From the NCBI GenBank assembly GCA_964596735.1, contig CAZQVF010000002.1:82321-146320 (forward strand): a stretch of 64,000 bases of DNA. The letters run 5' to 3'. Positions 5,892-43,498 of this stretch are shown here, in pieces. The notes under the pieces were generated by a model. It made no database searches. It worked only from the letters and a program-made list of their open reading frames with translations, and had not been told where the DNA came from. Source of the stretch: an uncultured Gammaproteobacteria bacterium. Its GTDB lineage: Bacteria; Patescibacteriota; Patescibacteriia; UBA2591; UBA6264. The stretch's first letter is position 1. Every line of letters begins with the position of its first letter. A program made the position numbers and the translations under genes.

Positions 5892-8800
5892 ATGTTTACT
5901 CATCTTCATGTCCACAGTCATTACTCTTTGCTTGATGGTTTATCAAAAATTGATGGACTGATTGATCAAGCCAAAAAACATAAAATGAAATCCTTGGCCT
6001 TAACTGATCACGGCGTAATGTATGGCGTGATTGAATTTTATCAAAAAGCAAAAGAAGCCGGAATTAAACCAATTATTGGAGTTGAGGCATATGTGGCCAG
6101 ACATGGCCATTTAAATAAAAGGGTAAAAATAGATGAAAAACCTTATCACTTAATTCTTTTGGCCAAAGATGAACAAGGGTATAAAAATTTAGTTAAACTT
6201 ACCACTATTGCTCATTTAAAAGGTTTTTACTATAAACCCAGAATAGATTTTGAGCTTTTGAAAAAATATTCTCTTGGATTGATTTGTTTGAGTGCTTGCA
6301 TTCGAGGAGAAATTCCCCAATTAATTCTTGAAAAACAAAAAGACAAAGCTATTAAAAGAGCTTTGGAGTATCAAGAAATTTTTGGTGCAGAAAATTTTTA
6401 TTTAGAAGTTCAAGATCATCCAAAAAGCAAAGAGCAGACTTTAATTAACAAGGCTCTTTTTAATATTTCTAAAAAACATAACATTCCTGTGGTCGCTACC
6501 AATGATGTTCATTATGCTAAAAAAGAAGATGCAGAAATTCAAGATATTCTTCTTTGCTTGCAAACAAAAAGAAAACAACAAGATAAAGATAGAATGTGTT
6601 CTTTGGACTATGATCTTTCTCTCCAGCCTGAAGCAGAAATAAAAGAAGCCTTTAAAAACCATCCTGAAGTGATTACTAATACTCAAAAAATTGTTCAGGC
6701 CTGCAATCTAGAGATTGAATTAAAAAAGACCAAGCTCCCCTACTTTCCTTTACCAGAGGGGGAAACAGCTGATCAATATTTAAGAGAACTTTGTGAAGAA
6801 AAAATTAGTAATCGTTATCCAAGAAAAACCAAACAAGTTACTGATCGCCTTGATCATGAATTATCAATGATTGAAAAAACTGGATTTGCCTCTTATTTTT
6901 TAATTGTTCAGGACTTTGTTAACTGGGCTAAGGATAATAATATCGTGGTTGGACTAGGTCGCGGAAGCGTCGCCGGCTCAATTGTCTCTTATGCCCTAAA
7001 CATTACTGATATCGACCCTTTAAAATATGGGTTACTTTTTGAAAGATTTTTAACTGGTTCAAGAAATGAACCACCAGATATTGACTTGGATTTTGCAGAT
7101 ACGCGACGTGATGAGGTTATTCACTATGTTGAAGAAAAATATGGCCGAGATCATGTCGCCCAAATAATTACTTTTGGGACCATGGCGGCCCGAGCAGCGA
7201 TTAGAGATGTGGGACGAGTGCTTAATTATCCTTATACCTTTTGTGATAAATTAGCTAAAATGATTCCTTTTGGTAATACTTTGGAAAAAGCCTTAAAAGT
7301 CTCTGATGAGTTAAAAAACATTTATCAAACTAATGAAGATGCTCAAAAAATTATTGACGCAGCTAAAAAGTTAGAAGGAGTAGCTCGTCACGCATCAAAA
7401 CACGCCTGTGGTGTGGTAATTGCCCCTGAGGCTTTAAACCAATATGTTCCTACCCAATATGATGTCTCTGGCGGAGAAAAAACAATTATTACTCAATATG
7501 ACATGCACGCTGTTGAAGATATTGGTCTTTTAAAAGTGGATTTTTTGGGACTGAAAAACCTAACTATCATTGAAAGAACATTAAAATTAATAAAATACCG
7601 CTATGACAAAGATATTGATATAGCTCAAATACCCCTTGATGATGCAAAGACTTTTAAACTTTTACAAAAAGCAGAAACAACTGGGGTCTTTCAATTAGAA
7701 TGTCTAACTGGAGACACTGTTGTTTCTAACACAACGATAAAAAAATTATTTGAACAAAAAAATAAGAAAGTTTTAGAATCTGTTTATTTAGATGAAGGAA
7801 AAATACACAAGAATAAAATTAAAAATATTTTATACAAGGGCGAAAAAGAGGTTTATACATTAATTGCCAATAACAATCGTTATATAAAAACAACATTAAA
7901 CCATTATTTTTTAACGGAAAATGGCTGGAAAAAATTAAAAGACATAAAAATAGGAGACAAATTATTAATTAAAGAAAAGGCTAAACATTTAGTTTATAAT
8001 ATATGTAAAAATTGTGGCAAACAAATTAGTGGTAATCCCTTAAGAAAAAGTGTGTTTTGTTATCGCTGTTCAGCAGGTTTTTATAAAAATCCCTCTAAAC
8101 CGTCTTCTAGAAAAAAAATATCAAAATCAATAATTAATTTTTATCAAAAAGGGGGCAGGCCATGGAATTATGGAATAACCACCGAAAATAGCGAATTATG
8201 GAAACAAACCGCTAAAAAAATATCAAAAGCTCTTACAGGAAAAACGCTTGAAGACCGTTATGGCAAAGAAAAAGCAGAAAGAATAAAAAAAGAGATGTCA
8301 GAAAAATTCAAAGGAAAAAATAATCCAATGTTTGGAAAGCCGTCTCCTCATCGAAAGGGTGGATTTAGAAAAGATCTAGGGCATTATGTTCGTTCTGCCT
8401 GGGAAGCAGATTTTGCCAGAATTTTAAAATTGTATCACTATAAATATGAATATGAACCGATAACATTTGAATTAAAATTACCAAATAACGAAATCTACCA
8501 TTATACCCCTGATTTTTATGTTAAATCCAATAATACCTTTTATGAAGTTAAAGGATGGATGCACGATTTAGACGAAAAGAAAATAGAACTTTTCCAAAAA
8601 CAATACCCACAATACAATTTTGTATTAATTAATAAAACAAAATTTGCTGAATTCGCTCTACAATATAAAAATTTAATTAAATGGGAATGTCCTCGTATAC
8701 CTATTGAAAATAGCTTTAAATTCATAAAAGTCAAAAAAATATTCCCTTCTGGTAAAGAAAAAACTTATGATATTGTAATGGAATCTCCTGGGAATAATTT

Positions 8801-10220
8801 TGTCGCTAATAGTTTTGTTGTACATAACAGCGGGGGGATGCAGCGATATCTAAAGCAGCTTAAGCCAACGGTTTTTGAAGATATCATTGCCATGGTTGCT
8901 CTTTACCGGCCTGGACCTATGGAATTAATTCCTGATTATATTGCTGGAAAAAAGCAGTTAAGAAAACCACACTATCTTCATCCAAAACTGAAACCTATTT
9001 TAGATAAAACATATGGTATCGCTGTTTTCCAAGAACAAGTTTTACAAATTGTTCGTGACTTGGCTGGATTTTCTTTATCTGAAGCTGATGTTTTACGTAA
9101 AGCAGTAGGAAAAAAGATTGCCAAACTCCTTCAACAGCAAAAGACAAAATTTATCCATGGATGTATTAATAACAAAATTCCTAAAGAAACAGCTGAAAGA
9201 ATCTTTGCCTTTATAGAGCCTTTTGCTGGCTATGGATTTAATTTGGCTCATGCCACCTGCTATGCAACTATTTCTTATCAAACTGCTTATTTAAAAGCAA
9301 ATTATCCAGCTGAATTTATTGCCGCTCTTTTAACTGCCCACAAAGCTGATACAGACCGCATTTCTGTTGAAGTAGAAGAAGCTCGAAAAATGGGTTTAGA
9401 GGTTCTTCCTCCTGATATTAATGAGAGTTTTAAAAATTTTACTGTTGTTGATAAAAAAAATATTCGGTTTGGATTAATAGCGATTAAAAATGTTGGCGAA
9501 GGAATTGTTCAAGCTATTATTGAAGAAAGGGAAGAAAACGGCATATTTCAAAATCTAGAAGACTTTCTCGGCCGAGTTGATTCTAAGGATTTAAATAAAA
9601 AGTCTATGGAAAGCTTGGTTAAAAGTGGAGCCTTAGACAAGTTTGGCGAACGTAATCATCTTTTAAACAATATGGAAACACTGCTTGAATTTGTTAGAAA
9701 AAAACAAAAAGACAAGAATAACGGGCAGACTAGTCTTTTCGGGCTTTTATCTTTAACTGGCAAGGTGAATTTAAAATTAAAAAAATCTGATCCGGCTACT
9801 CATCAGGAAAAACTTCTTTGGGAAAGAGAACATTTAGGATTCTTTGTCTCTGAGCATCCTTTAAAACAATATCAAGAAGTTATTAAAAAATATGTTAAAC
9901 CTATTAATCAATTAGAATTATCCAATGGCTTTAAAAATTCTTCTATAAAAATATTAGGTCTAATTACTAAAATTAAAAAAATCACTACCTCTAGTAATGA
10001 GAATATGATTTTTGTTAAAGTAGAAGATTCTTTTGGCGAAATAGAAGTCATTGTCTTTCCTAAAATATTAAAACCTACTTCTAAGCTTTGGGAAGAAAAC
10101 AAAATGGTTTCTGTTGAGGGAAGGCTTTCTGATAAAGATGGTGAATTAAAATTAATTGCTGAAAGCGTCAAAGAAGTGACTAAAAACATGCTTGATGATC
10201 TCTTGCTTAAAAAAGAATAA
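5892..10220 (+). CDS. dnaE: DNA polymerase III alpha subunit, interrupted by an in-frame intein (7701-8828)
   Basis: PHP domain HLHVHSHYSLLDG, polymerase core, and C-terminal OB fold. The extein junction VFQLE|...|SGGMQRYLK corresponds to the E. coli VFQLESRGMK region. Confidence 0.9.
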   Translation: MFTHLHVHSHYSLLDGLSKIDGLIDQAKKHKMKSLALTDHGVMYGVIEFYQKAKEAGIKPIIGVEAYVARHGHLNKRVKIDEKPYHLILLAKDEQGYKNLVKLTTIAHLKGFYYKPRIDFELLKKYSLGLICLSACIRGEIPQLILEKQKDKAIKRALEYQEIFGAENFYLEVQDHPKSKEQTLINKALFNISKKHNIPVVATNDVHYAKKEDAEIQDILLCLQTKRKQQDKDRMCSLDYDLSLQPEAEIKEAFKNHPEVITNTQKIVQACNLEIELKKTKLPYFPLPEGETADQYLRELCEEKISNRYPRKTKQVTDRLDHELSMIEKTGFASYFLIVQDFVNWAKDNNIVVGLGRGSVAGSIVSYALNITDIDPLKYGLLFERFLTGSRNEPPDIDLDFADTRRDEVIHYVEEKYGRDHVAQIITFGTMAARAAIRDVGRVLNYPYTFCDKLAKMIPFGNTLEKALKVSDELKNIYQTNEDAQKIIDAAKKLEGVARHASKHACGVVIAPEALNQYVPTQYDVSGGEKTIITQYDMHAVEDIGLLKVDFLGLKNLTIIERTLKLIKYRYDKDIDIAQIPLDDAKTFKLLQKAETTGVFQLECLTGDTVVSNTTIKKLFEQKNKKVLESVYLDEGKIHKNKIKNILYKGEKEVYTLIANNNRYIKTTLNHYFLTENGWKKLKDIKIGDKLLIKEKAKHLVYNICKNCGKQISGNPLRKSVFCYRCSAGFYKNPSKPSSRKKISKSIINFYQKGGRPWNYGITTENSELWKQTAKKISKALTGKTLEDRYGKEKAERIKKEMSEKFKGKNNPMFGKPSPHRKGGFRKDLGHYVRSAWEADFARILKLYHYKYEYEPITFELKLPNNEIYHYTPDFYVKSNNTFYEVKGWMHDLDEKKIELFQKQYPQYNFVLINKTKFAEFALQYKNLIKWECPRIPIENSFKFIKVKKIFPSGKEKTYDIVMESPGNNFVANSFVVHNSGGMQRYLKQLKPTVFEDIIAMVALYRPGPMELIPDYIAGKKQLRKPHYLHPKLKPILDKTYGIAVFQEQVLQIVRDLAGFSLSEADVLRKAVGKKIAKLLQQQKTKFIHGCINNKIPKETAERIFAFIEPFAGYGFNLAHATCYATISYQTAYLKANYPAEFIAALLTAHKADTDRISVEVEEARKMGLEVLPPDINESFKNFTVVDKKNIRFGLIAIKNVGEGIVQAIIEEREENGIFQNLEDFLGRVDSKDLNKKSMESLVKSGALDKFGERNHLLNNMETLLEFVRKKQKDKNNGQTSLFGLLSLTGKVNLKLKKSDPATHQEKLLWEREHLGFFVSEHPLKQYQEVIKKYVKPINQLELSNGFKNSSIKILGLITKIKKITTSSNENMIFVKVEDSFGEIEVIVFPKILKPTSKLWEENKMVSVEGRLSDKDGELKLIAESVKEVTKNMLDDLLLKKE
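7701..8828 (+). mobile_element. Intein (376 aa) in DnaE with putative Zn-finger/NUMOD3/PD-(D/E)xK homing-endonuclease region
   Basis: Begins with Cys (CLTGDTVV, block A), TxxH block B (TTLNHYF), ends VVHN followed by Ser (+1 nucleophile). The interior has CxxC...CxxC, NUMOD3-like K/G-rich repeats (GKTLEDRYGKEKAERIKK; KNNPMFGKPSP) and HYTPDFYV...FYEVKG (a PD...ExK pattern). The frame was checked: 7701 and 8829 are both in frame with 5892. Confidence 0.8.
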
Positions 10221-22470: not shown

Positions 22471-22481
22471 AAAATAGACTT

Positions 22482-22844
22482 AAGTAGGTGGCGATCGCTC
22501 TAAATATGACCTAGTCATATTTGGGGAGGAAAGTCCGAACACTCCCTTATTTAACATGAGGAGCCGGGTAGCAGGTAACTCCTGTCGTCGCGCACATTAC
22601 GAGCATGATAGAGGTGCGAACAGAGACGCTTAAACCTGAAAAGGTAAAAGCACCCCTTGGGGTGAGCTCTAAAAGAAATTTTAGAGGTGAAACGGCTAAA
22701 CCCTTACCTGAGTGAAAGGCCAAACAAAAAACCCCTGAATTTCAAAATTCAAGGATGGTAGGCCGTTTGAGTCTAGTTGCAAAGCTAGATCTAGATAAAT
22801 GATCGCGCTCTCACGAGTAACAGAATTCGGCTTATTGCCTACTT
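22482..22844 (+). ncRNA. rnpB: RNase P RNA (bacterial type A-like)
   Basis: 5' AAGUAGGUGG pairs with 3' UUGCCUACUU (P1). Contains GGAAAGUCCGAAC (P4 5' strand) and ACAGAAUUCGGCUUA (P4 3' strand / conserved 3' region). Confidence 0.85.
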
Positions 22845-23254
22845 AAGTCTTTTTTATTCTTGTCAATCACTTGATTAACAAGCTTATCAGCTTGTTTATT
22901 TTTTTCTCTGGGAATATAATGGTAACTGATTTTTTTAAAAGACTGGGACAAATTCCACACTTTAACAAACAAAGAGCCCAGATCTCGGTTTTTTATTTTA
23001 TATCGATGATTTAACTGTTCAACAATCAACTGGCTATCCAAATAACAACTAAGTTCTTTAGCTTTTAAGGCTTTTGCTTTTTGCAAAGCTAAAATTAAAG
23101 CCTCATATTCTGCTTGATTATTAGTGGCTTTTTTTAAAAACTTAGTGTATTCTCCAATTACTTTGTTTTGTTGGTCATAAATAACCACCCCGCAACCGCC
23201 TGGTCCTGGATTCCCCCTGGCTCCACCATCTGTATAGATTTTTAATTTACTCAT
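22832..23254 (-). CDS. rnhA: Ribonuclease HI
   Basis: IYTDGGARGNPGPGGCGVVI DEDD active-site signature. The 3' end overlaps the rnpB 3' end by ~13 nt (convergent). Confidence 0.85.
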   Translation of the reverse strand: MSKLKIYTDGGARGNPGPGGCGVVIYDQQNKVIGEYTKFLKKATNNQAEYEALILALQKAKALKAKELSCYLDSQLIVEQLNHRYKIKNRDLGSLFVKVWNLSQSFKKISYHYIPREKNKQADKLVNQVIDKNKKDLSRQ

Positions 23255-34366: not shown

Positions 34367-37300
34367 TTACTGATCAAGATCTCCACAATTACGTTTGAGG
34401 CCACTTCCCGGACCACAATAATAGTCTTTATTATGAACCAAGAAATCATTGGCAAAGTAGTTATGTAGTTTATCAACTTCTAGATTATAAACTGTTTGCT
34501 GATCTATTGCCTTTTTAATTTTAATAATTTTAACAAATTCTAATCGCCCATTATTATTTATTTTCCCAACCTCATCCCAAATGTTTAAATCTTTAACTTT
34601 TAAATATCCTTTTCTAGTATAGATAGGATGAATATTTGTTACCTTTAAAACTGAATAGTCTAAAAGTGTCATTATATAATAATCTTGTTTTTCATGTTCA
34701 AATGTTTGCATTACTTTGACTTTTTGGATTCTATTTTTTTCTAAATCATACCCATTAATTATGTCTCCGACTTTAATGTCCTCAATGTTTTTAAATCCAT
34801 TCTCAGTTGTAATTAAAGTCCCGGCAATAAAACATCCTGCTTCGTCTCCACAACAAAATTGATCATCATCACAACTGCTACCACAAGTGGCAACGCAATC
34901 ACTACAATAAGTCGAATCAGTAGGACAACCATCTTCTGAAGGACCCCATTGACAATCATCTTCACAATAGCGACATTGACCCGCTCCTACATAGTCTCCC
35001 TCACCAGGTGTACATGCGTTTTTTGGAGGAAGATCACATATTCCACTTTGACACTCGCCACATGCCTCCATACACTCTGTTCCATCCGATACAGATTGAT
35101 CAGCTGGACAGCTGCTAGAAGAACCTGTGCAGGTTTCTGATATATCACACTCAGAGTCTGCTGGGCGACAAACATATTCTGAAGACCGATAATAACAACC
35201 ATCACAACAAGCTCCCGTAGTACAGTCGCAGGGAGGAACACAAGCACCATTATTACAAACTTCCCCAGTAGGACAGCAAACACCAGCACAACAAGTTCCT
35301 GTATCACAACCTAAATAAGGTGGCGGCCCTGTGTCTGTAACTGGATCACAATCTCCAGTACCATCACACTGATAACAAGTTGTACATTGAGCAGTAGATT
35401 GCCCACAACTAGCTGTTAATATATTGCCGGCATCAGCATTAATTGTCACGCCAAAAGCTCCTGAATTATCTGTTTTACAAACACCATTATAAGCACAGCT
35501 ACGATAATATATTGTTCCTGAACAAGCCCCAGAAGTACAAGAATTATCTATATCACAATAATAAGTAGATGAAACTGATATTTCTGAACCGTTAACGCAA
35601 ACCTTGTTTTCTGCCACAATTGAACCATTGTTACCAACATCATAAGAACAAGCATGTCCAGCAGAACATCTTAATTCATCTCTTGTTTTAAAACAATCTG
35701 TATTACAGTAATTCCAAGAAGAAAAATCGCAAAGTGTCGTTCCGTTTGGCGAACAACTACCGGTTAAAGTTTTGCCAGTATTAGGATAAACTGTTTGTTG
35801 GTAAGAACCTGTCGCGTCTGCTTTACAAGCTCCACTACCATCACAACCACGATAATATCTATAACCAACACAAGCACCGTTTGTACAATCATCAACAATC
35901 GCCCCGCAATAATTACTAGTGCTACGATAAGCCAGGGTGCAATCAGGATATAATACACAATTTGCCTGAGCCATGATTGGTTGTAAATGACCGCCCGTGT
36001 AGTCACCTACACCCCGGCAAGCCCCACTACCATTACATGAGCGATACCATCTAGTCCCTGAGCAACTATTATTACTGCAATTATTTTCAGGTGATCCACA
36101 ATAATTTGAGGCTGAAACAGAAGTGATTTCACCTGCTCCTGTACAAACAGAACCAGAAGGAATATTTTCTGTGCCGCCACTAGGATCACAAGACCCACTA
36201 GAACCACATAGCCCACTACCTCCCCCTCTAACACAATCACTGTCGCAAGAAATCCAACCTATTTCACACTGATTAAACGGATCTTGACCTGCTGTCTGAT
36301 TTACACAAGATCCGTTATAACATCTTTTACAAGTATCCTGGCATAATGTTGAGCCAACAGTATCTTGGGTATTATTTGTTTTATTAACACAGGTTCCAGA
36401 ACCTGCCCCATCACAAGTCTGACAAGCTGAACAATTTCTATCTCCAGAAGTATAATAATCTGTACAAAAGCCGCTGCCGTCACAATTACCAGTTAAACAT
36501 CCACTAGTATCATTGCAAATATTTCTGGGATCATTTCCTGCACTGACATTATGACAGGTTCCAGCTGATCCACCAAAACCTTCACCACAATATTCACAAC
36601 TCCCAGTACAAGACATATCACAACAAACTCCGTCAACACAACTTCCTGAATGACAATTTGCGTCACCTGAACAAGCTTCACCATTGGCTTTTAACGCACA
36701 AGAAACTCCACTCCAAGAACAATTATTACATTCAAGAAAACCGGTTGGTTCACTTTCATATCCTAAGCCTTCACATGTTGCTGCTGGAATAAATCCCTCT
36801 GATGGAAAAGTTGTTCCCGGACAATATCCTGATTGAAATGGAGAACAGCAGGTTCCATAACCACTTCCGCAATCACATTGTTCTCCGCATTGGAGTGTTC
36901 CGTCTCCGCAAACAGGTGCTCCTGGTGACTCATAAATATAATTAAAATCCCCTGAAGAATCTGATTGGGTAGTGATAACGTCTTCTTCCCCTTTCCAGAT
37001 GATTCCCCCATTACCATATTCTAAATTGACTGATAAGGTATAATATTCACCTAAACAACCTGATTGATCTGGAGCATAATATTGATAAACATGAGACCCA
37101 TCAGGAATCTCAAAAATTTGAGTACTAGGGTTATAACAAGTATTATCACATTGAGAATCTGGTTCATCAATACAACCAGCACAAGGACCATTAAATTCAT
37201 TAATTGGATCAACTGGTAATGATTCTCCTAAGGCTTGTGATAAAGTATTTGTCCAAGAAGGCCAAAGACTATTGCTTTTACTCAAGACATATGTCCCTGC

Positions 37301-40300
37301 CCCCAAGGTTGGATATTCACCTTGTTCTTGATAATGCTCTTCTAATTCATCTTTTATTTCTTGAAAATTATAAAGTCTTAATAAGTCGTTTTGTAGCTTG
37401 GGTTTATCTTCAAAATAATTATCTAAATTAATATTAAATTCCCAATTATATAATATCTGATTAAATATTTCTATTGTTTTTGGGCTTGCTCCATCATTAT
37501 ATGAAATTAAATAAACATAGGTATAAACTCCCTGATCAGCACAAGTAAGTGTTGCAATATAGCTTCCATGTCCTGTTACACCCCATGCCCCATTATTATA
37601 TCTCATATAACCTCCTCCTGATCCAGTAGTTGTGTAGGACTCAAAGCCACTGTAATTTTGATCATCAACACAATATTGCTGAGCCGTCGCGTTGTCAGGA
37701 TATAAATAATATGAACCATGTTGAGGATTAGAAAAATTATCAGTATCTGAACCCAAATTAGTTGCCCCAACATAAGTAGTTCTTCCTTCTCGCAAAGCAT
37801 AATAGTTATCAATAACAAAATTGCTCGGCTTTCCCGGATTTGGTACATTTTGTTCGTACCAGTTTAAAACACTCAGTCTTTTTGGATTATTAAATACTTT
37901 TAAGCCAATTACGTCTCCTGAATCACCAACGGAAAAAAGAAATTCTTTAATTAAAGGATCACTGCCTTCTATTGATGCCTCTGCTAATTCTGGCAATCTG
38001 TCTGCTTCGGCTTGAGCTAAGTCTCCTCGACAATAACTTAATTTAAATTGAGTATTTGGAGCAAAACCTGGACCAGCTGCATCTTCAAAAGTCCAAGGAA
38101 CTTCGCAAATAAGAACGTTTGCTTCTGTTATTCCTAAAACAGAAATAGCTGGATCAGAACCAACAATCGTGGCCGTAGCCGTAATCTGCACTCGGCCATT
38201 TCTGTCTTGAGCCATAGCTGTTTCATCTTCTGAACTAGATCCTGTTATTGAAACAACTGCTGGGTCTGAAGATTCCCATGACCAGGTCCAGTCATAAACA
38301 TCAGGAATTCCTAATATTTCATTGCCCTGATTATCATATGTGTAAGCAATTAAATTTTCTGATTCGTCCGTGGATGTGAAGTCAATTGTTTTTGGTTCAA
38401 TATCAACTTCTGACAGAGTACAAATTTGATCAGAAGTAGTAAATGTTGAATTATAATCAGCGGCCATACCAACACCATAAATGCTTTCTACTCCGTTTTC
38501 CCCGCCTAGAATTGTTATTTGATATTCTTGATTAGAATCAAGTAATCCGGCATTTATATTTACTATTGTCTTATTTTCATTATAACAAGTAAGTGTTGCA
38601 ATATAGCTTCCATGTCCTGTTACACCCCATGCCCCATTATTATATCTCATATAGCTTCCCAGTGTTAGGGTAGTTGTATAGGAGTCAAAGCCCCTGTAAT
38701 CTTGATCAAGACAATATTGCTGAGCTGTTGCACTACTAGGATATAAATAATATGAACCATGTTGAGGATTGGGAATGTCATTAGTAGGTTCTCGAAAGAT
38801 ATCGTCAACAGCTGAAACATCAACTGTCGAAGTTATATCATCCCATAAAGTAGTCCATTTAAAAAATTTTATTGTGTCTTTTGAAATACTTGATCTGTCC
38901 ATGGGTTGATCAAAAATTGCTTTAATTACTGAATTGCGACAAACATTAGAGCCAGAAGGTTGAAAAGTTTCTACATTAGGATAAATGGCTACCACTAAAT
39001 CAACAGAGTTAGTTACTGGCTCGCCTGCTGATGGAGTAGCCGTAACCTCAATTTCTGTTTCTCCTAAGTCTACGGCCGTAGCCATAGCAGTATAAGTGGG
39101 TGTTTGCGGAGCCACAGTGGCCACACCCGGTTCTGTTGATTCCCATGTCCAAGTAAATGTATCTGGTCTTAAAATCTGACAATCTGGACCAATTGGCAAA
39201 GCAGAATAATCTTTAGTTCCTGATTCAATAATTATCCCAACCGGATCTTGTTCAAATATTTCTATTGCTTGAGCAGAACAAACCTCTGCCTGGTCTTTTG
39301 TTTTAAAATACCAAGTATAGTCGTCATTGGGCGAGTCGTCTTCAATTCCGTCCTTGTTTCCGTCTAACTGATAATTATCAACCGAATCTACAATCCCTGT
39401 TTCCCCACTTTTAAGAGTAACTTGATACCAATAATTTTGATCCAACAGAACACCAGGTGTATAAATAAATCCTTTACTACAGAGTAGTGTATCAATTCTT
39501 TCTGCTGAACTTTCTTCAACCCATTCTCCGTCTACATACCTCATATAGTCATCAATTGGACCAACTGTAGAATAAGTCGCTTTAAAACTAGTATAACCGT
39601 GTTCAAAACAAAATCGATTGGCTGTTGTTATGTCTGGATATAAATGAACTGCATTGTGTTGGGGGTTAACAAATGACTTGTCTGTTTCCACAATTGTTCC
39701 GCTAACATCAGTGGTGCATGATGCTGAATCAAACATTTCATTGCCTAGATTACATTTCTCAACAATGATATTAGTGTTTGATAAATTATCTACTTCCATG
39801 TTAAAACGAGCTGAAATCAATGCATTGCGGCAGGCTTGCGAAGATAAATGACGCGGGGAAGGGGTCTGGATATTGTTTAAGCAAGTACTGTCTTCAAAAA
39901 CCTGGGGAAGATCAAAAGTTTCTGGATCTTCCGGCGGCAAAACTGGGGGGGAAAGCACACTAGTAAATTCTCCTGAACCAGAATACCCCGATATTGTTGC
40001 AGAAATATCAGTGGTCTGCTCCCCTTCTCCTTCCACAGGAGAAACCGTAGTTTCTAATGCTTGGCTAGGACTAACCACAGCGATATTAATGTCATCTGAT
40101 TGCCAGAAAAATTCTGCCACACAAATCGGGTTATTATTAAAATTATATCCCTGGGCTGTATAAATAACACTGTCTTCAAAAGATTCAACAATAGCACTGT
40201 CTGGACTAACAATAATTTCACTAATTTCGCATATATTATCTTCAGGTCCAGTTGCAAATTGCCAAGTATAATCATCCATGGAAACGCCCAGGCTATCGCG

Positions 40301-43300
40301 AATACCTTGTCCATCAAGCCCCCCAATTAATTCTACCTTGTAACCTGTGTATGGATCTAAATCACAATCTATTGGTAATAAATTAACCTGATCATTGTCT
40401 TCATTAATAATTAAATTATAACTTACGTCTTGTTCAGATGATTCCTGCCTTAAATCAACCTGATAAATTCTAATATTAGAATCATGGGGCGACTCAGACC
40501 AATCATTGTCCCACTCTAATCTAATCGTGTGCGTCCCTGCAGTAATATTACCCAATGAAACATTTGAAATCTGGTGACCTAATGTTGCGTCAGCGCAAAA
40601 ATCACCCTTTTCAACATTGTCAACAAACACTTTAACGTGATGTTGAACACCTGGTTCAGAACAAACTCCGTCTTCGCCAAAATCTTTAACATCTGCTGAA
40701 TAATTAGACGTTTCTACATAGATCTGATAATCACCATCTGCGCTAACATTAAAACTATAATCCCACCAATTAACATCACAACGGCCAGTATAAATACCTG
40801 ACTGATCAAGACAACTAGTGTATTGGGTGGTTGTATAATCTATTCCAAGCTTGGATTCAATTAAAGGAGGTAATTTTTTTAATTTAATATTATTTGTATT
40901 TAAAGAGTTTCTGTCCATGTCTTGACTGAAATTAGCCTCAATAGCTGTATTTAAACAAACCGCCTCTCCAGTTGGGCTATTACTGGTTATTGTTGGTTGA
41001 GCATAACAGCATTGATTTGGATCTAAAAATCCGCAGCCTAATCCGTTTCCACATTGGTCATCACTTTCACACCCACAGCAAAGACCACGATCATCACCAG
41101 TACAACTTCCTTGATTAGCCATACATTCCAAAGGAGCCTCGCAAGAATTTGTAATAACATCGCAGCAACATCGGCAAGTGTCTGTTGCTTCATATAGGCA
41201 ATTATAAATGGGGGTCGAACAATTATAAGGAGGGTTGTCAGGACAAAAAGTTGCCTCTTGGCAGGCTTGGCCTGGTCCGCCCGGATGTTGTAAAATATCA
41301 AAAGGCAATTCATTACTCATGCCCTGATCATTTTCAACATATACTAAACCGTCTTCTGATCCCAAAGGAACTAAAGCACTACTAATTTGTTGGTCTGACC
41401 AGGTTTGATAAACAGCTAATTTATTATTATAAAATACCACCTTACTTCCTGCTGACTCTACGCCAAATCTTATTCCTGATAAATCAACTTCTGTTTCATT
41501 TGAATAACCGGCTGACGGATTAATAGAGAAAAGACAGGGCCCATTTGCCTGTTCATTACTGTCTACATAAAACTCAACTAAATTACTAGTTAATTGATCT
41601 CCACCATCATATTCAATAGTCGCCTGGACTTCTGGCCGATCCCCTTGTGAATAAATATCTGGCACTTGTGTAGTTAAATAATTATTGTCAGATCCTTCAA
41701 TTGCTGTTTGAGTAGGTGTTCCATTAAGAATAAAATCTATTTTTATTGGAAGAGCTGGCTGAGTAGCTGTTCCCTCAAAACAGCTGCCATGAAGTGTTAT
41801 ACACTCACCTTTTGAACCTTGAGCCGGTTCTAGATGTGAAATCCAAGGTGAACAAAAGCAGTTTCCCATGGTGGCTGTTGTAAATTCCCAAAAGTCAGAA
41901 AGTAAAGTGCCTTGTTGATCAATGACTAAATCAGTTAAAACTGTTACCTGATAATCTGATTCAGTTTGTAAATTATCATCTGGATCAAAAGTAAAAACTC
42001 TAAAATGATTATTAACTGGGTCACCTGGATCATCTACTCTAAAAACACCACCAATAACTATTTCTTCATAAGGAGGGTCAAATTCACTTGGTCGCATCTC
42101 AAAATCAAAATTATCACCCCCGCCACTAATTTCAAACCTAACTAAGTTGCCATACATCTGGGTGCCAAAAGTCACACTAATATCAGTGTCCGGACAAACC
42201 AAAGTACCGGTTGGGTGCCAAAAACTAATTCCTGGTGCTTGATCATTGGTCTGGAACTCCCACTCAAGTGGTTCGTCCATCTGGTTCATGCAAAGATCTT
42301 CAATGTTGCCAACATGAATCCGATACCAGGTAAATGCTTGTAATAAATTTTCATCTCTTAAAGAAATTCTAAATCCATTACTAATCGCCCCAATTTCAAA
42401 AATCTCTTTAGCCAAAGTTTCAACTATCGTCCCCCCTTGACCATCTAACCTGGCCAGCCAAATATTTGTTTCAATTGGATAATTATTTTCATCAGCTACT
42501 GTGGTCATATCAATTGGCTCAGAAAAACTAGCCTCAATACTTGGTTTTCGGGAAACATTTTGATCTGGATAATCAGGATCACTTTGGTCAAAAATTGGAT
42601 AAGTAGCAACAATCTCTGGTGGGACGGTGTCAAGGGTTTCTCCAGTCATAAAATTCCAAAGAAAATAACTGCCAGCGTCAAGACAATCGCCAGCAGCTAA
42701 ACAGACTTGAAGAAATTCTCCCTGAGTGTCTGAAATTGCTTTGGGAAAATAAGCCTCATAAGAAGTATTAGGATCAAAAAGGTCAGGATGTTTGAAAATA
42801 ATAATATTATTTCTGGTTTGCCAACTACCACTAACCGGGCTTGCCCCGGTTTCAATTCTTAAATCCCCGGCTGTTTCTAAGTCCTCAATTATTAGCCCAT
42901 CAACTGAATGATTAAATATTGGCTGAACAGCAGAACAAAGATAAACATCCTGATGATAATTCTGCTCTAAGCCGCCATGAGTTGTTTCAATTTTTCTAAT
43001 TCTAAAAGCATCTGGAGGCAATGAACAGTCTGGATCAGAAATATTACAACTACCACCAGAATCGCAACGCAAACCCGGGCCACAGCAAAGACCTGGAGTA
43101 CAACCTCCACTGCCTCCTAGGCCTTCTCCAGTCACTCCGCTTAACCGGCCCATAATAAAAGATACTATTGCATAAGCAAAAACAATAATCAAAAGCCCGA
43201 TTAAACCACTAGAAATAATTTTCTTGGCTTTGGTTACCTTGTCAGCAACCCCCCCTGAGGTCATCCAAATAAAACCACCGGCAATCATAATGATGACGGC

Positions 43301-43498
43301 GATTAAACCTAAAAGGCTTAGTCCAATTTTAACAATGTTACCAATTACTTGGGGCAAAGGGGCTTCTCCATAACCGGCTGCTTCGCCAAAATTTATTAAC
43401 TCTTCATTTCCCAGTGTTTGAGCCTGAACCGGTAAAATAAAATAGAATAAACAAAAAACCGTAAACACCAAAAATGTAATTTTAAAAATATTTTTCAT
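34367..43498 (-). CDS. Giant (3043 aa) cell-surface protein: signal peptide + VirB2/TrbC-like pilin double-TM N-terminus, Ig/IPT-like domains, tandem internal repeats, extensive Cys-rich modules, C-terminal Hint/BIL domain
   Basis: Signal peptide MKNIFKITFLVFTVFCLFYFILPVQA. Two TM helices separated by a short loop (IGLSLLGLIAVIIMIAGGFIWM / LIGLLIIVFAYAIVSFIM). An IPT-like CSPWISHLEPAQGSKGECITLHGSCF. Repeated ...YMRYNNGAWGVTGHGSYIATLTC modules. Dense C-x-C arrays. CFIAG...FLVHN at the C-terminus. The antisense ORFs listed in the track over this region are spurious. Confidence 0.85.
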   Translation of the reverse strand: MKNIFKITFLVFTVFCLFYFILPVQAQTLGNEELINFGEAAGYGEAPLPQVIGNIVKIGLSLLGLIAVIIMIAGGFIWMTSGGVADKVTKAKKIISSGLIGLLIIVFAYAIVSFIMGRLSGVTGEGLGGSGGCTPGLCCGPGLRCDSGGSCNISDPDCSLPPDAFRIRKIETTHGGLEQNYHQDVYLCSAVQPIFNHSVDGLIIEDLETAGDLRIETGASPVSGSWQTRNNIIIFKHPDLFDPNTSYEAYFPKAISDTQGEFLQVCLAAGDCLDAGSYFLWNFMTGETLDTVPPEIVATYPIFDQSDPDYPDQNVSRKPSIEASFSEPIDMTTVADENNYPIETNIWLARLDGQGGTIVETLAKEIFEIGAISNGFRISLRDENLLQAFTWYRIHVGNIEDLCMNQMDEPLEWEFQTNDQAPGISFWHPTGTLVCPDTDISVTFGTQMYGNLVRFEISGGGDNFDFEMRPSEFDPPYEEIVIGGVFRVDDPGDPVNNHFRVFTFDPDDNLQTESDYQVTVLTDLVIDQQGTLLSDFWEFTTATMGNCFCSPWISHLEPAQGSKGECITLHGSCFEGTATQPALPIKIDFILNGTPTQTAIEGSDNNYLTTQVPDIYSQGDRPEVQATIEYDGGDQLTSNLVEFYVDSNEQANGPCLFSINPSAGYSNETEVDLSGIRFGVESAGSKVVFYNNKLAVYQTWSDQQISSALVPLGSEDGLVYVENDQGMSNELPFDILQHPGGPGQACQEATFCPDNPPYNCSTPIYNCLYEATDTCRCCCDVITNSCEAPLECMANQGSCTGDDRGLCCGCESDDQCGNGLGCGFLDPNQCCYAQPTITSNSPTGEAVCLNTAIEANFSQDMDRNSLNTNNIKLKKLPPLIESKLGIDYTTTQYTSCLDQSGIYTGRCDVNWWDYSFNVSADGDYQIYVETSNYSADVKDFGEDGVCSEPGVQHHVKVFVDNVEKGDFCADATLGHQISNVSLGNITAGTHTIRLEWDNDWSESPHDSNIRIYQVDLRQESSEQDVSYNLIINEDNDQVNLLPIDCDLDPYTGYKVELIGGLDGQGIRDSLGVSMDDYTWQFATGPEDNICEISEIIVSPDSAIVESFEDSVIYTAQGYNFNNNPICVAEFFWQSDDINIAVVSPSQALETTVSPVEGEGEQTTDISATISGYSGSGEFTSVLSPPVLPPEDPETFDLPQVFEDSTCLNNIQTPSPRHLSSQACRNALISARFNMEVDNLSNTNIIVEKCNLGNEMFDSASCTTDVSGTIVETDKSFVNPQHNAVHLYPDITTANRFCFEHGYTSFKATYSTVGPIDDYMRYVDGEWVEESSAERIDTLLCSKGFIYTPGVLLDQNYWYQVTLKSGETGIVDSVDNYQLDGNKDGIEDDSPNDDYTWYFKTKDQAEVCSAQAIEIFEQDPVGIIIESGTKDYSALPIGPDCQILRPDTFTWTWESTEPGVATVAPQTPTYTAMATAVDLGETEIEVTATPSAGEPVTNSVDLVVAIYPNVETFQPSGSNVCRNSVIKAIFDQPMDRSSISKDTIKFFKWTTLWDDITSTVDVSAVDDIFREPTNDIPNPQHGSYYLYPSSATAQQYCLDQDYRGFDSYTTTLTLGSYMRYNNGAWGVTGHGSYIATLTCYNENKTIVNINAGLLDSNQEYQITILGGENGVESIYGVGMAADYNSTFTTSDQICTLSEVDIEPKTIDFTSTDESENLIAYTYDNQGNEILGIPDVYDWTWSWESSDPAVVSITGSSSEDETAMAQDRNGRVQITATATIVGSDPAISVLGITEANVLICEVPWTFEDAAGPGFAPNTQFKLSYCRGDLAQAEADRLPELAEASIEGSDPLIKEFLFSVGDSGDVIGLKVFNNPKRLSVLNWYEQNVPNPGKPSNFVIDNYYALREGRTTYVGATNLGSDTDNFSNPQHGSYYLYPDNATAQQYCVDDQNYSGFESYTTTGSGGGYMRYNNGAWGVTGHGSYIATLTCADQGVYTYVYLISYNDGASPKTIEIFNQILYNWEFNINLDNYFEDKPKLQNDLLRLYNFQEIKDELEEHYQEQGEYPTLGAGTYVLSKSNSLWPSWTNTLSQALGESLPVDPINEFNGPCAGCIDEPDSQCDNTCYNPSTQIFEIPDGSHVYQYYAPDQSGCLGEYYTLSVNLEYGNGGIIWKGEEDVITTQSDSSGDFNYIYESPGAPVCGDGTLQCGEQCDCGSGYGTCCSPFQSGYCPGTTFPSEGFIPAATCEGLGYESEPTGFLECNNCSWSGVSCALKANGEACSGDANCHSGSCVDGVCCDMSCTGSCEYCGEGFGGSAGTCHNVSAGNDPRNICNDTSGCLTGNCDGSGFCTDYYTSGDRNCSACQTCDGAGSGTCVNKTNNTQDTVGSTLCQDTCKRCYNGSCVNQTAGQDPFNQCEIGWISCDSDCVRGGGSGLCGSSGSCDPSGGTENIPSGSVCTGAGEITSVSASNYCGSPENNCSNNSCSGTRWYRSCNGSGACRGVGDYTGGHLQPIMAQANCVLYPDCTLAYRSTSNYCGAIVDDCTNGACVGYRYYRGCDGSGACKADATGSYQQTVYPNTGKTLTGSCSPNGTTLCDFSSWNYCNTDCFKTRDELRCSAGHACSYDVGNNGSIVAENKVCVNGSEISVSSTYYCDIDNSCTSGACSGTIYYRSCAYNGVCKTDNSGAFGVTINADAGNILTASCGQSTAQCTTCYQCDGTGDCDPVTDTGPPPYLGCDTGTCCAGVCCPTGEVCNNGACVPPCDCTTGACCDGCYYRSSEYVCRPADSECDISETCTGSSSSCPADQSVSDGTECMEACGECQSGICDLPPKNACTPGEGDYVGAGQCRYCEDDCQWGPSEDGCPTDSTYCSDCVATCGSSCDDDQFCCGDEAGCFIAGTLITTENGFKNIEDIKVGDIINGYDLEKNRIQKVKVMQTFEHEKQDYYIMTLLDYSVLKVTNIHPIYTRKGYLKVKDLNIWDEVGKINNNGRLEFVKIIKIKKAIDQQTVYNLEVDKLHNYFANDFLVHNKDYYCGPGSGLKRNCGDLDQ
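34430..34834 (-). other. Hint (intein-like, BIL-type) domain, 135 aa, 20 aa from the C-terminus of the giant protein
   Basis: Starts CFIAGTLITTENG (block A-like) and ends NDFLVHN (block G His-Asn). The +1 residue is Lys, which is not a nucleophile. There is no endonuclease insert. Confidence 0.7.
37530..37760. repeat. Internal repeat A within the giant gene
   Basis: A 70-nt stretch identical to 38586-38655 (acaagtaagtgttgcaatatagcttccatgtcctgttacaccccatgccccattattatatctcatata), with flanks ~80-85% identical. Confidence 0.8.
38575..38800. repeat. Internal repeat B within the giant gene (paralogous to 37530-37760)
   Basis: See repeat A; a third, more diverged copy lies near 39540-39700. Confidence 0.8.

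What the first reader, a model, noticed from the sequence alone, without database searches (positions are those of the whole stretch)
7701..8828. DnaE intein carrying a non-canonical (Zn-finger + NUMOD3 + PD-(D/E)xK-like) endonuclease region
An in-frame 376-aa insertion sits at the highly conserved VFQLE/S motif of DNA polymerase III alpha. It has textbook intein ends: Cys1 (CLTGDTVV), a TxxH block B, and ...VVHN followed by Ser+1.

Instead of LAGLIDADG or HNH motifs, the central region contains:
- a CxxC-x14-CxxC zinc finger;
- two K/G-rich NUMOD3-like DNA-binding repeats (GKTLEDRYGKEKAERIKK; KNNPMFGKPSPHRKGG);
- a YHYTPDFYV...FYEVKGW segment matching the PD...(D/E)xK nuclease signature.

PD-(D/E)xK homing endonucleases are well known in introns and free-standing genes but rare within inteins, so this could be an uncommon intein-endonuclease combination.
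Basis: partly seen in the sequence, partly recalled or inferred. Interest (0 to 1): 0.65.

Follow-up and report, generated by a model that had tools for sequence, protein, structure and literature searches.

The report
DnaE intein with T7-endonuclease-I-type nuclease
The DNA polymerase III alpha gene of this candidate-phyla-radiation bacterium is interrupted by a self-splicing protein element (intein) whose built-in "homing" nuclease belongs to the phage T7 endonuclease I family rather than the two families normally found in inteins, and comparative data suggest it is still mobile.

Summary
Window 5892-10220 (+) encodes a 1442-aa DnaE. Codons 7701-8828 are a 376-aa in-frame class-1 intein (Cys1, T65xxH68, HN376|Ser+1) inserted at VFQLE|SGGM.

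The interpretation also holds, and can be sharpened. Between the splicing lobes sits a complete module: a CxxC-x14-CxxC zinc ribbon, two NUMOD3-like repeats and a PD-(D/E)xK nuclease. By sequence and by fold, its closest relative is phage T7 endonuclease I, and all four catalytic residues are present (E235, D271, E282, K284). No LAGLIDADG or HNH signal was found.

The same intein occupies the same dnaE site in 51 species-representative genomes (Patescibacteria, Chloroflexota, Acidobacteriota, Acidimicrobiia). Four results indicate an active homing element:
- Two syntenic alleles with 94-95% identical exteins lack the intein precisely.
- The nuclease shows dN/dS of about 0.1.
- In several genome pairs the intein is much less diverged than its flanking dnaE.
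- The same nuclease module is nested in inteins of phage terminase and tail-completion proteins, and is free-standing in thousands of phage-like genes.

I found no paper describing this nuclease family inside inteins. I rate it a new variant of a known kind. Splicing and cleavage remain untested.

The parts
5892..10220 (+). dnaE (DNA polymerase III alpha) precursor ORF, 1442 aa including the intein. The spliced product would be 1066 aa.
   Evidence: Pfam PHP 1e-59, DNA_pol3_alpha 1.7e-104, DNA_pol3_finger 2.6e-57, HHH_6, OB. An identical protein, P0173, is in public data on contigs up to 288 kb.
5892..7700 (+). N-extein (603 aa), ending ...TTGVFQLE.
   Evidence: Aligns colinearly with intein-less P0174/P0175.
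7701..8828 (+). Intein, 376 aa, class 1 (Cys1 ... His68 ... His375-Asn376, Ser+1).
   Evidence: Pfam Intein_splicing 1e-20. TIGR01445 intein_Nterm scores above its cut-off. The Ssp DnaB mini-intein 1mi8 aligns to aa 10-94 and 341-375. The element is precisely absent from L055 and L056.
7701..7985 (+). HINT N-terminal splicing lobe (aa 1-95), with block A CLTGDTVV and block B T65xxH68.
   Evidence: C1, H68, T72 and G-W are conserved in all 18 representatives.
8004..8069 (+). Zinc ribbon C102xxC105-x14-C120xxC123, the start of the nested endonuclease module.
   Evidence: Three Cys are invariant and the fourth is at least 90% conserved in 18 intein copies. Free-standing relatives have the same CxxC...CxxC N-terminus. 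The Pfam hit is weak only (zf_Rg, E=0.049).
8070..8237 (+). Helical linker with invariant NPS and W-N motifs (aa 124-179). Presumed DNA-binding extension.
   Evidence: Invariant N35/P36/S37/W60 in alignment A2. Predicted helices in the AF2 model. Its function is inferred.
8238..8363 (+). Two NUMOD3-like repeats (aa 180-221): GKTLEDRYGKEKAERIKKEMSEKFKG and KNNPMFGKPSPHRKGG.
   Evidence: Pfam NUMOD3 E=0.0023, 18.2 bits against a 20.4 cut-off, at aa 196-213. Relatives pass the cut-off, for example P0016 at 31.2 bits and HVTV-1 gp37 at 23.9 bits.
8364..8702 (+). T7-endonuclease-I-like PD-(D/E)xK nuclease domain (aa 222-334). Catalytic residues are E235 (8403-8405), D271 (8511-8513), E282 (8544-8546) and K284 (8550-8552). 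It ends in the conserved WECPxIP junction motif.
   Evidence: - Pfam Phage_endo_I 4.6e-6.
- PHROG 9019 at 6e-14, PHROG 945 at 2e-10.
- phmmer against PDB: 1m0d at 5e-5, with RSxxE / TPDF / E-x-KG aligned to T7 endo I.
- AF2 pLDDT 90-98.
- Foldseek top five hits are all T7 endo I, prob 0.94-0.99 (four of five at 0.99).
- dN/dS 0.08-0.11.
8706..8828 (+). HINT C-terminal splicing lobe (aa 336-376), with block F TYDIVM...N.F and block G ANSFVVHN.
8829..10220 (+). C-extein (463 aa plus stop), starting at Ser+1: SGGMQRYLKQL...
7671..7700 (+). Left half of the predicted homing site: GCAGAAACAACTGGGGTCTTTCAATTAGAA. The right half is 8829-8858: AGCGGGGGGATGCAGCGATATCTAAAGCAG.
   Evidence: Reconstructed empty site. 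Real empty sites occur in L055 and L056...TTTCAATTAGAA|TCAGGGGGAATG.... That this is the cleavage target is inferred, not shown.

Best explanation
This is a mobile class-1 intein in dnaE. Its nested homing endonuclease is a complete free-standing-type phage module: a zinc ribbon, a helical/NUMOD3 DNA-binding arm, and a C-terminal PD-(D/E)xK nuclease of the T7 endonuclease I lineage.

Proposed mechanism:

1. dnaE is translated as a 1442-aa precursor. The HINT lobes then splice: N-S acyl shift at Cys1, trans-esterification to Ser+1, cyclisation of Asn376, and O-N shift. This restores VFQLE-SGGM in the finger domain and yields a functional 1066-aa Pol III alpha. This step is inferred from conserved residues.

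2. The excised 43-kDa intein binds an intein-less dnaE allele across the VFQLES coding sequence. Binding uses the extended zinc-ribbon/NUMOD3 arm, as in I-TevI, I-HmuI and I-Bth0305I. The tethered nuclease cuts with Mg2+ held by E235, D271 and E282, with K284 as the catalytic lysine. This step is inferred.

3. Recombinational repair from the intein-bearing allele copies the 1128 bp into the empty site. Occupied alleles are immune because the target is split. This step is inferred.

What is shown: the anatomy, the family assignment, the presence/absence polymorphism, purifying selection on the nuclease, and intein-versus-extein discordance.
For: Intein identity:
- Pfam Intein_splicing 1e-20.
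- The Ssp DnaB mini-intein aligns to both lobes, placing the insert at the canonical endonuclease position.
- C1, H68, HN and S+1 are conserved in 18 cluster representatives and in 49 of the 51 genome loci; L049 and L051 did not show a C-terminal junction.

Nuclease family:
- Pfam PF05367 4.6e-6, PHROG 9019 at 6e-14, PDB 1m0d at 5e-5, with E20/D55/E65/K67 equivalents aligned.
- The five best Foldseek PDB hits are all T7 endo I; the rest are other PD-(D/E)xK nucleases.
- No LAGLIDADG or HNH hit.

Mobility:
- P0174 and P0175 (94-95% extein identity, 92% DNA identity, same gene neighbourhood) have a precise empty site.
- Most Patescibacteria DnaE in the top 120 hits are intein-free.
- Nuclease dN/dS is 0.08-0.11 at dS 0.43-0.78.
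- For L007/L012 and L015/L021 the intein dS is 0.61-0.63, against 2.2-2.5 for the flanking 1.2 kb of extein, so the intein is younger than the host-gene divergence.

Modularity:
- The same architecture is free-standing in about 4,000 clusters and in cultured phages and haloviruses.
- It is nested in inteins of a phage terminase large subunit and of tail-completion proteins.
Against: - No experiment exists. Neither splicing nor cleavage nor the target site has been shown.
- The window protein's PF05367 score (26.8 bits) and NUMOD3 score (18.2 bits) are just below Pfam's gathering cut-offs of 29.1 and 20.4.
- T7 endo I is an obligate domain-swapped dimer that recognises DNA structure, not sequence. 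How a single nested copy makes a site-specific double-strand break is unknown. The AF2 model is a compact monomer that superposes poorly on the swapped crystal chains (rmsd above 20 A, TM 0.35).
- Across phyla, intein identity roughly tracks extein identity, so much of the distribution could be vertical.
- dS values above about 1.5 are saturated, so the intein/extein contrast is semi-quantitative.
- One representative (P0033) has Gly in place of E235.
Confidence: 0.8

Rival explanations
1. This is a fixed, vertically inherited intein whose nuclease is no longer active in homing. The element persists only because precise loss from an essential gene is rare.
For: Intein identity to the window copy is similar to extein identity over most of the 51 loci. 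The element sits at a single site in an essential gene. P0033 has lost E235.
Against: - A decaying nuclease should drift, yet dN/dS of the nuclease part is 0.08-0.11 and the catalytic residues are invariant in 17-18 of 18 representatives.
- Alleles at 94-95% extein identity lack the intein precisely.
- In several pairs the intein is 3-4 times less diverged at synonymous sites than the flanking dnaE.
Confidence: 0.1
2. The nuclease is domesticated. After splicing, the free intein serves the host as a structure-specific nuclease or Holliday-junction resolvase, like T7 endonuclease I. Alternatively, the module makes DnaE maturation conditional, acting as a regulatory intein.
For: The closest characterised relative is a junction-resolving enzyme. 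Purifying selection is strong and similar to that on the polymerase itself. The insertion sits in a catalytically important motif of a replisome protein.
Against: - Closely related strains do without it, so it is not essential.
- The zinc-ribbon/NUMOD3 arm is the hallmark of sequence-targeted phage homing endonucleases.
- The same module is nested in unrelated phage structural proteins and occurs free-standing in phages, which fits selfish mobility better than a host function.
Confidence: 0.07
3. It is not a splicing element but a permanent insertion domain retained in the mature polymerase.
For: None beyond the lack of direct splicing evidence.
Against: All nucleophiles and assisting residues of class-1 splicing are present and conserved (C1, T65xxH68, H375-N376, S+1). 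The element interrupts the invariant VFQLES motif, and its boundaries coincide to the codon with the empty site in orthologues.
Confidence: 0.02

Closest known systems
Phage T7 endonuclease I (gp3; Pfam PF05367; PDB 1fzr, 1m0d, 2pfj)
   Same: It is the best sequence and fold match for aa 222-320. The motifs RSxxE, TPDF and E-x-KG align, with the E20/D55/E65/K67 equivalents at E235/D271/E282/K284.
   Different: T7 endo I is a stand-alone, 149-aa, domain-swapped homodimer that resolves four-way junctions without sequence specificity. Here the domain is fused behind a zinc ribbon and NUMOD3 arm, is nested in an intein, is modelled as an unswapped monomer, and scores just under the Pfam cut-off (26.8 against 29.1 bits).
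Canonical endonuclease-bearing inteins (LAGLIDADG type such as PI-SceI and Mtu RecA; HNH type)
   Same: A class-1 HINT splicing domain with the endonuclease inserted between blocks B and F. The host is a replication protein and the site is a conserved motif. The distribution is sporadic, with empty alleles.
   Different: The nuclease family differs. Dassa et al. [quoted passage not shown] No LAGLIDADG or HNH signal is present here.
Modular phage homing endonucleases (I-TevI/I-BmoI GIY-YIG, I-HmuI HNH, I-Bth0305I EDxHD)
   Same: [quoted passage not shown] Free-standing relatives occur in phage genomes.
   Different: The catalytic fold is T7-endo-I-type PD-(D/E)xK. The nuclease is C-terminal to the binding arm. 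This copy is translated as part of an intein rather than from an intron or a free-standing gene.
I-Ssp6803I (PD-(D/E)xK homing endonuclease of a cyanobacterial tRNA group I intron)
   Same: Same nuclease superfamily, and also used for homing.
   Different: No detectable sequence or Foldseek relationship in these searches. It is a compact tetramer without a NUMOD arm and is intron-encoded, not intein-nested (PMC2677866, PMC3943268).
F-CphI / DHHRN family (T4 endonuclease VII fold)
   Same: It is the precedent for a phage Holliday-junction-resolvase fold re-used as a homing endonuclease, with the catalytic domain at the C-terminus (PMC6083498).
   Different: The fold differs (beta-beta-alpha-metal). 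F-CphI is free-standing, and that paper does not mention inteins at all.
Vsr-like/EDxHD endonucleases in 'fractured' split-intein loci, including three DnaE loci (Dassa 2009)
   Same: A restriction-fold-derived homing endonuclease associated with inteins in DnaE.
   Different: In those loci the endonuclease is a separate gene between split-intein halves and has the EDxHD/Vsr active site. Here it is fused in-frame inside a contiguous intein and has the classical E/D/ExK site.

Membership tests
Intein (class 1, HINT) | In-frame insertion in a conserved host-protein motif that is absent from orthologues | tested here: met
   VFQLE|...|SGGM. P0174 and P0175 (94-95% identical) and their DNA (L055, L056) have a precise empty site.
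Intein (class 1, HINT) | Block A Cys/Ser1, block B TxxH, block G His-Asn, and a Cys/Ser/Thr at +1 | tested here: met
   C1, T65-L-N-H68, H375-N376, S+1. Conserved in 18 representatives and in 49 of 51 loci.
Intein (class 1, HINT) | HINT-fold or profile match | tested here: met
   PF14890 at 74.5 bits against a 35.8 cut-off. TIGR01445 at 26.5 against 24.5. PDB mini-inteins 1mi8 and 6frg at 5e-10 to 3e-9. The AF2 N-terminal 46 residues are low-confidence.
Intein (class 1, HINT) | Autocatalytic protein splicing | not testable with these tools
   Requires expression of the precursor.
T7 endonuclease I family (PF05367) | Profile match at or above Pfam's gathering score | tested here: not met
   26.8 bits (E=4.6e-6) against a 29.1 cut-off for this protein. 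Relatives with the same module pass: P0008 30.1, P0051 31.1, P0065 31.5, P0172 40.2. The database's precomputed Pfam list for the identical protein P0173 includes PF05367. I therefore describe it as T7-endo-I-like rather than as a curated member.
T7 endonuclease I family (PF05367) | Catalytic Glu20, Asp55, Glu65 and Lys67 | tested here: met
   The phmmer alignment to 1m0d pairs RSGLE/RSAWE, TPDF/TPDF and ETKG/EVKG. The residue numbering of T7 endo I is from my own knowledge.
T7 endonuclease I family (PF05367) | Fold similarity | tested here: met
   Foldseek ranks 1-5 are 1fzr, 1m0d, 3cae and 2pfj (prob 0.94-0.99, four of five at 0.99; 22-26% identity). TM is only about 0.35 and rmsd above 20 A. 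I attribute this to domain swapping in the crystal chains, which is an inference.
T7 endonuclease I family (PF05367) | Domain-swapped homodimer; four-way-junction resolution | not testable with these tools
Homing endonuclease (functional class) | Encoded inside a self-splicing element at the canonical endonuclease insertion point | tested here: met
   The insert lies between the residues that align to positions 101 and 122 of the Ssp DnaB mini-intein.
Homing endonuclease (functional class) | Population signatures of mobility: empty sites in close relatives, purifying selection on the nuclease, and an element younger than its host gene | tested here: met
   The high dS values are saturated, so the contrast is semi-quantitative.
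Homing endonuclease (functional class) | Site-specific cleavage of the intein-less allele | not testable with these tools
   Needs biochemistry.
NUMOD3 (PF07460) | Profile match at the gathering score | tested here: inconclusive
   18.2 bits against a 20.4 cut-off (E=0.0023) at aa 196-213. Aligned relatives pass.
LAGLIDADG or HNH intein endonucleases | LAGLIDADG or HNH motif or profile | tested here: not met
   No such Pfam, NCBIfam or PHROG hit at E<=1.
EDxHD / Vsr-like homing endonucleases | Vsr-type active site (Asp/His) and profile | tested here: not met
   No Vsr or EDxHD hit in Pfam, PDB or Foldseek. The active site is the classical E...PD...ExK.

The most novel reading that the evidence does not exclude
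T7-endonuclease-I-type, NUMOD3-tethered nucleases may constitute a large and so far undescribed homing-endonuclease family. About 4,000 clusters at 50% identity match, and most are free-standing, phage-like genes. This DnaE intein, and its counterparts in phage terminase and tail-completion proteins, would then be the first PD-(D/E)xK endonucleases found nested in contiguous inteins. That would make them a third nuclease class for inteins, and still actively homing across at least four bacterial phyla.
Probability: 0.5. Interest if true: 0.7.

Novelty: new variant of a known kind. Interest (0 to 1): 0.6.

Why it matters
Inteins are textbook carriers of LAGLIDADG, and rarely HNH, endonucleases. 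A third nested nuclease class would show that HINT domains can capture whole modular phage endonuclease genes. That fits the capture model proposed from "fractured gene" loci (PMC2677866).

It would also add the second classic phage junction resolvase fold to the list of folds converted to sequence-targeted homing; T4 endonuclease VII / F-CphI was the first. This raises a concrete mechanistic question: how does an obligately dimeric, structure-specific nuclease become a site-specific one?

On the practical side, small catalytic domains on NUMOD arms, such as I-TevI, have been used as fusion partners for genome-editing nucleases. A PD-(D/E)xK version with a defined natural target, a 60-bp dnaE site available here together with natural empty alleles, is directly testable.

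For genome annotation, it explains over-long DnaE genes in CPR, Chloroflexota and Acidobacteriota MAGs.

Tried and rejected
- PADLOC scan of the central region gave no defence-system match.
- NCBIfam gave nothing for the nuclease part.
- A homologue search with the HINT lobes alone (endonuclease removed) was meant to reveal mini- or LAGLIDADG-inteins at the same site. It returned nothing, because the word index is too insensitive for a 137-aa query. Whether the site was first occupied by another intein type therefore remains open.
- Literature searches could not match the string 'PD-(D/E)xK' because of its punctuation. The surrogate terms 'PDDEXK', 'restriction endonuclease-like', 'PF05367', 'endonuclease I-like' and 'candidate phyla radiation', each combined with 'intein', found no description of this combination. 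Absence from an open-access library is not proof of absence.
- The halovirus HVTV-1 gene annotated 'replication factor C small subunit' looked like a possible RFC intein with the same nuclease. It is a 241-aa free-standing NUMOD3/endo-I-like protein, so this is probably a misannotation.
- I looked for a co-conversion tract next to the insertion site. Identity in the first 100 bp downstream is slightly lower (0.85-0.87 against about 0.92 overall), but not convincingly so.
- I did not test whether the VFQLE|S site matches a named InBase DnaE site (a, b or c), because no such database is available here.

Full report
**1. Observation**

ORF 5892-10220 (+) encodes a 1442-aa DNA polymerase III alpha subunit. 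Its Pfam matches are PHP 1e-59, DNA_pol3_alpha 1.7e-104, DNA_pol3_finger 2.6e-57 (split into two stretches), HHH_6 and OB. The key positions are:
- Cys1 at 7701-7703
- T65-L-N-H68
- C102xxC105-x14-C120xxC123
- GKTLEDRYGKEKAERIKK... and KNNPMFGKPSPHRKGG at aa 180-221
- YHYTPDFYV at aa 266-274
- FYEVKGW at aa 280-286
- VVHN376 at 8826-8828, followed by AGC (Ser+1)

Removing the 376 aa restores ...TTGVFQLE-SGGMQRYL.... From my own knowledge of E. coli DnaE, which I did not align here, this corresponds to its VFQLESRGM motif. The window has about 32% G+C and the intein is not compositionally foreign. The genome is a Patescibacteria (CPR) genome, judged from the source names of its closest DnaE relatives.

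**2. It is an intein**

Pfam Intein_splicing matches aa 10-376 at E=1e-20, 74.5 bits against a 35.8 cut-off. TIGR01445 (intein N-terminal region) passes its cut-off. By phmmer against the PDB, the Ssp DnaB mini-intein (1mi8) aligns to aa 10-94 and again to aa 341-375. The roughly 245 intervening residues therefore sit exactly where endonuclease domains sit in other inteins.

A search with the spliced extein found the identical 1442-aa protein in public data (P0173). It also found two orthologues of 1072 and 1066 aa that are 95% and 94% identical and uninterrupted. Their contigs are syntenic with the window: the same small upstream ORF, the 383-aa downstream ORF and thrS. The DNA alignment is 92% identical, with a clean junction ...TTTCAATTAGAA|TCAGGGGGAATG.... 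Most other Patescibacteria DnaE in the top 120 hits are also intein-free.

**3. What the central region is**

No LAGLIDADG or HNH family appears even at E<=1. The nuclease evidence is as follows:
- Pfam Phage_endo_I (T7 endonuclease I) matches aa 229-309 at E=4.6e-6. At 26.8 bits it is just under the 29.1-bit gathering score.
- TnsA-like_N gives a weak match.
- PHROG 9019 ('Holliday junction resolvase') scores 6e-14, and PHROGs 945 and 29037 ('endonuclease') score 2e-10.
- phmmer of aa 221-330 against the PDB finds only T7 endonuclease I (1m0d at 5e-5; also 1fzr, 2pfj, 3cae).
- That alignment pairs RSAWE with RSGLE, YTPDF with YTPDF, and YEVKG with VETKG. These are the positions of T7 endo I Glu20, Asp55, Glu65 and Lys67 (numbering from my own knowledge), which here are E235, D271, E282 and K284.

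An AlphaFold2 model of aa 96-335 has pLDDT 90-98 over the nuclease core. Its five best Foldseek PDB hits are all T7 endonuclease I chains (probability 0.94-0.99, 22-26% identity). The following hits are other PD-(D/E)xK nucleases: the R2 endonuclease domain, Bax1, AbaSI, Cas4 and RecE. The full-intein model likewise hits mini-inteins and T7 endo I. TM-scores to T7 endo I are low (about 0.35) and rmsd exceeds 20 A. I attribute this to the domain-swapped, extended conformation of the crystal chains compared with a compact monomer model, but that is an inference.

NUMOD3 matches aa 196-213 at E=0.0023 (18.2 bits against 20.4). Aligned relatives pass the cut-off. The four zinc-ribbon cysteines are conserved.

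**4. Relatives**

A full HMMER scan of 1.84 billion cluster representatives with aa 95-330 gave 4,172 hits at E<=1e-3 and 23 at E<=1e-30. The roughly 20 best hits cover the whole query and lie inside long proteins. Their flanks show they are all DnaE interrupted at the same motif.

An alignment of 18 such inteins (39-69% identical to this one in the endonuclease part) gave these results:
- Invariant: C1, H68, three zinc cysteines, the NPS and WN motifs, R231, S232, Y268, P270, D271, E282, K284, the junction motif W-E-C, and H-N.
- E235 is present in 17 of 18.

A scan of one genome per GTDB species found 51 genomes with the full module. All are in dnaE at this site. They comprise about 25 Patescibacteria, two Acidimicrobiaceae, and many Anaerolineales/Chloroflexota, Blastocatellia/Acidobacteriota and one 'Clostridia' MAG. 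Only one peptide pattern was used for that scan, so this is a lower bound.

The remaining thousands of hits are 200-350-aa stand-alone proteins with the same order of parts: CxxC...CxxC, then NUMOD3, then the endo-I/TnsA_N-like nuclease, often ending ...LWEGK where the intein copies read WECPxIP. Cultured examples include Bacillus phage G gp28, which lies next to the major capsid gene, and haloviruses HVTV-1 gp37 and HCTV-5 gp38.

The same module is also nested in other inteins. Five tail-completion (HK97 gp10-like) proteins carry it at YVEYG|C...HN|T, and one terminase large subunit carries it too. The endonuclease therefore looks like a free-standing phage gene that HINT domains have captured, or that has moved between them, more than once.

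**5. Is it active?**

Nei-Gojobori estimates on the closest intein pairs give dN/dS = 0.07-0.11 for the whole intein and 0.08-0.11 for the endonuclease part, at dS 0.43-0.78. That is purifying selection comparable to the flanking polymerase (0.04-0.07).

In some pairs the intein is far less diverged than the 1.2 kb of dnaE around it:

| Pair | Intein dS | Intein dN | Extein dS | Extein dN |
|---|---|---|---|---|
| L007/L012 | 0.61 | 0.066 | 2.15 | 0.13 |
| L015/L021 | 0.63 | 0.066 | 2.47 | 0.18 |

L002/L005 shows the same direction, with dS 0.91 against 1.5. High dS values are saturated, but the dN contrast points the same way. In these pairs the intein arrived after the host genes diverged. 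Together with the empty alleles at 94-95% extein identity, this is the expected signature of ongoing homing. Across phyla, intein and extein identities are similar, so vertical descent also contributes.

**6. Mechanism (shown against inferred)**

Shown:
- the architecture
- the conserved splicing and catalytic residues
- the polymorphism
- the selection

Inferred:
- class-1 splicing that restores VFQLE-SGGM
- binding of the empty dnaE site by the zinc-ribbon/NUMOD3 arm, as in other modular phage homing endonucleases (PMC3943268)
- Mg2+-dependent hydrolysis by the E/D/ExK site
- copying of the intein by recombinational repair

Unknown:
- the cleavage position
- whether the cut is a nick or a double-strand break
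- whether the enzyme dimerises as T7 endo I does

**7. Comparison with the known**

[quoted passage not shown] F-CphI (T4 endo VII fold) has been proposed as a seventh (PMC6083498). [quoted passage not shown]

Nine literature searches found no description of a T7-endo-I-type or other PD-(D/E)xK endonuclease nested in an intein. The library is open-access only, and the domain co-occurrence is visible in precomputed Pfam annotations. I therefore rate this 'new variant of a known kind', not categorically new.

**8. Verdict**

I score interest at 0.6: it is a real, conserved and apparently mobile intein with an unconventional endonuclease class, and it is directly testable. It remains within the established intein/homing paradigm and has no experimental support yet.

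Noticed in passing
window 34367-43498 (-): A 3043-aa ORF with a Big_5 Ig-like domain and a C-terminal pretoxin-HINT domain (PT-HINT 5e-13). This is the architecture of a giant polymorphic-toxin-like surface protein, and a second, non-intein use of a HINT domain in the same window.
   Followed up: no
window 22480-22850 (+): Bacterial RNase P RNA, class A: 124 bits, full-length model match.
   Followed up: no
P0176, P0235, P0034 (DnaE relatives); sites correspond to window aa 358|359 (GLGRG|S) and about 742|743 (GYGFNL|AH) of the spliced DnaE: Close DnaE relatives carry other inteins at two other dnaE sites. P0176 (88% identical extein) and P0235 carry LAGLIDADG_3-type inteins there. P0034 carries the endo-I-type intein plus a second intein of undetermined type. 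The endo-I-type endonuclease was seen only at the VFQxE site.
   Followed up: partly
L025-L050 compared with L001-L024, L026, L027: The insertion register differs by one codon between clades. Patescibacteria and Acidimicrobiaceae have VFQLE|C...HN|SGGM. Chloroflexota and Acidobacteriota have VFQ(V/L/F)E(G/S)|C...HN|SGM. The Ser+1 seems to travel with the intein.
   Followed up: partly
P0004 (413 aa, on a 31-kb contig): An intein-like ORF with the same endonuclease module and intact E/D/ExK. It has W-LDGSTLV in place of Cys1 and ends ...NGYLIRSSA in place of HN|S. It may be a decayed intein or a derivative that has become a stand-alone gene.
   Followed up: no
L057:2704-3429 (Halovirus HVTV-1 gene 37, KC117377.1): Annotated 'replication factor C small subunit', but it is a 241-aa NUMOD3 plus endo-I-like protein. 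Other records of the same virus call it 'endonuclease' or 'endodeoxyribonuclease I'. The RFC label is probably a misannotation.
   Followed up: yes
L052 and L053: The two loci gave identical results in this analysis: a 442-aa ORF of the same length with the same upstream sequence and the same tblastn statistics. It is a free-standing relative of the nuclease. It lies on ~109-kb contigs assigned to a Daviesbacteria MAG and a Woesearchaeota MAG respectively, which suggests a shared mobile element or phage, or a binning error.
   Followed up: no
L058:1734-2666 (Bacillus phage G gp28): A free-standing zinc-finger plus endo-I-like relative sits immediately downstream of the major capsid gene, a typical position for a free-standing homing endonuclease gene.
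   Followed up: no
L019, L022, L037, L038, L048: The dnaE ORFs in these genomes are 1870-2285 aa. This implies one or two further inteins in addition to the endo-I-type one.
   Followed up: no
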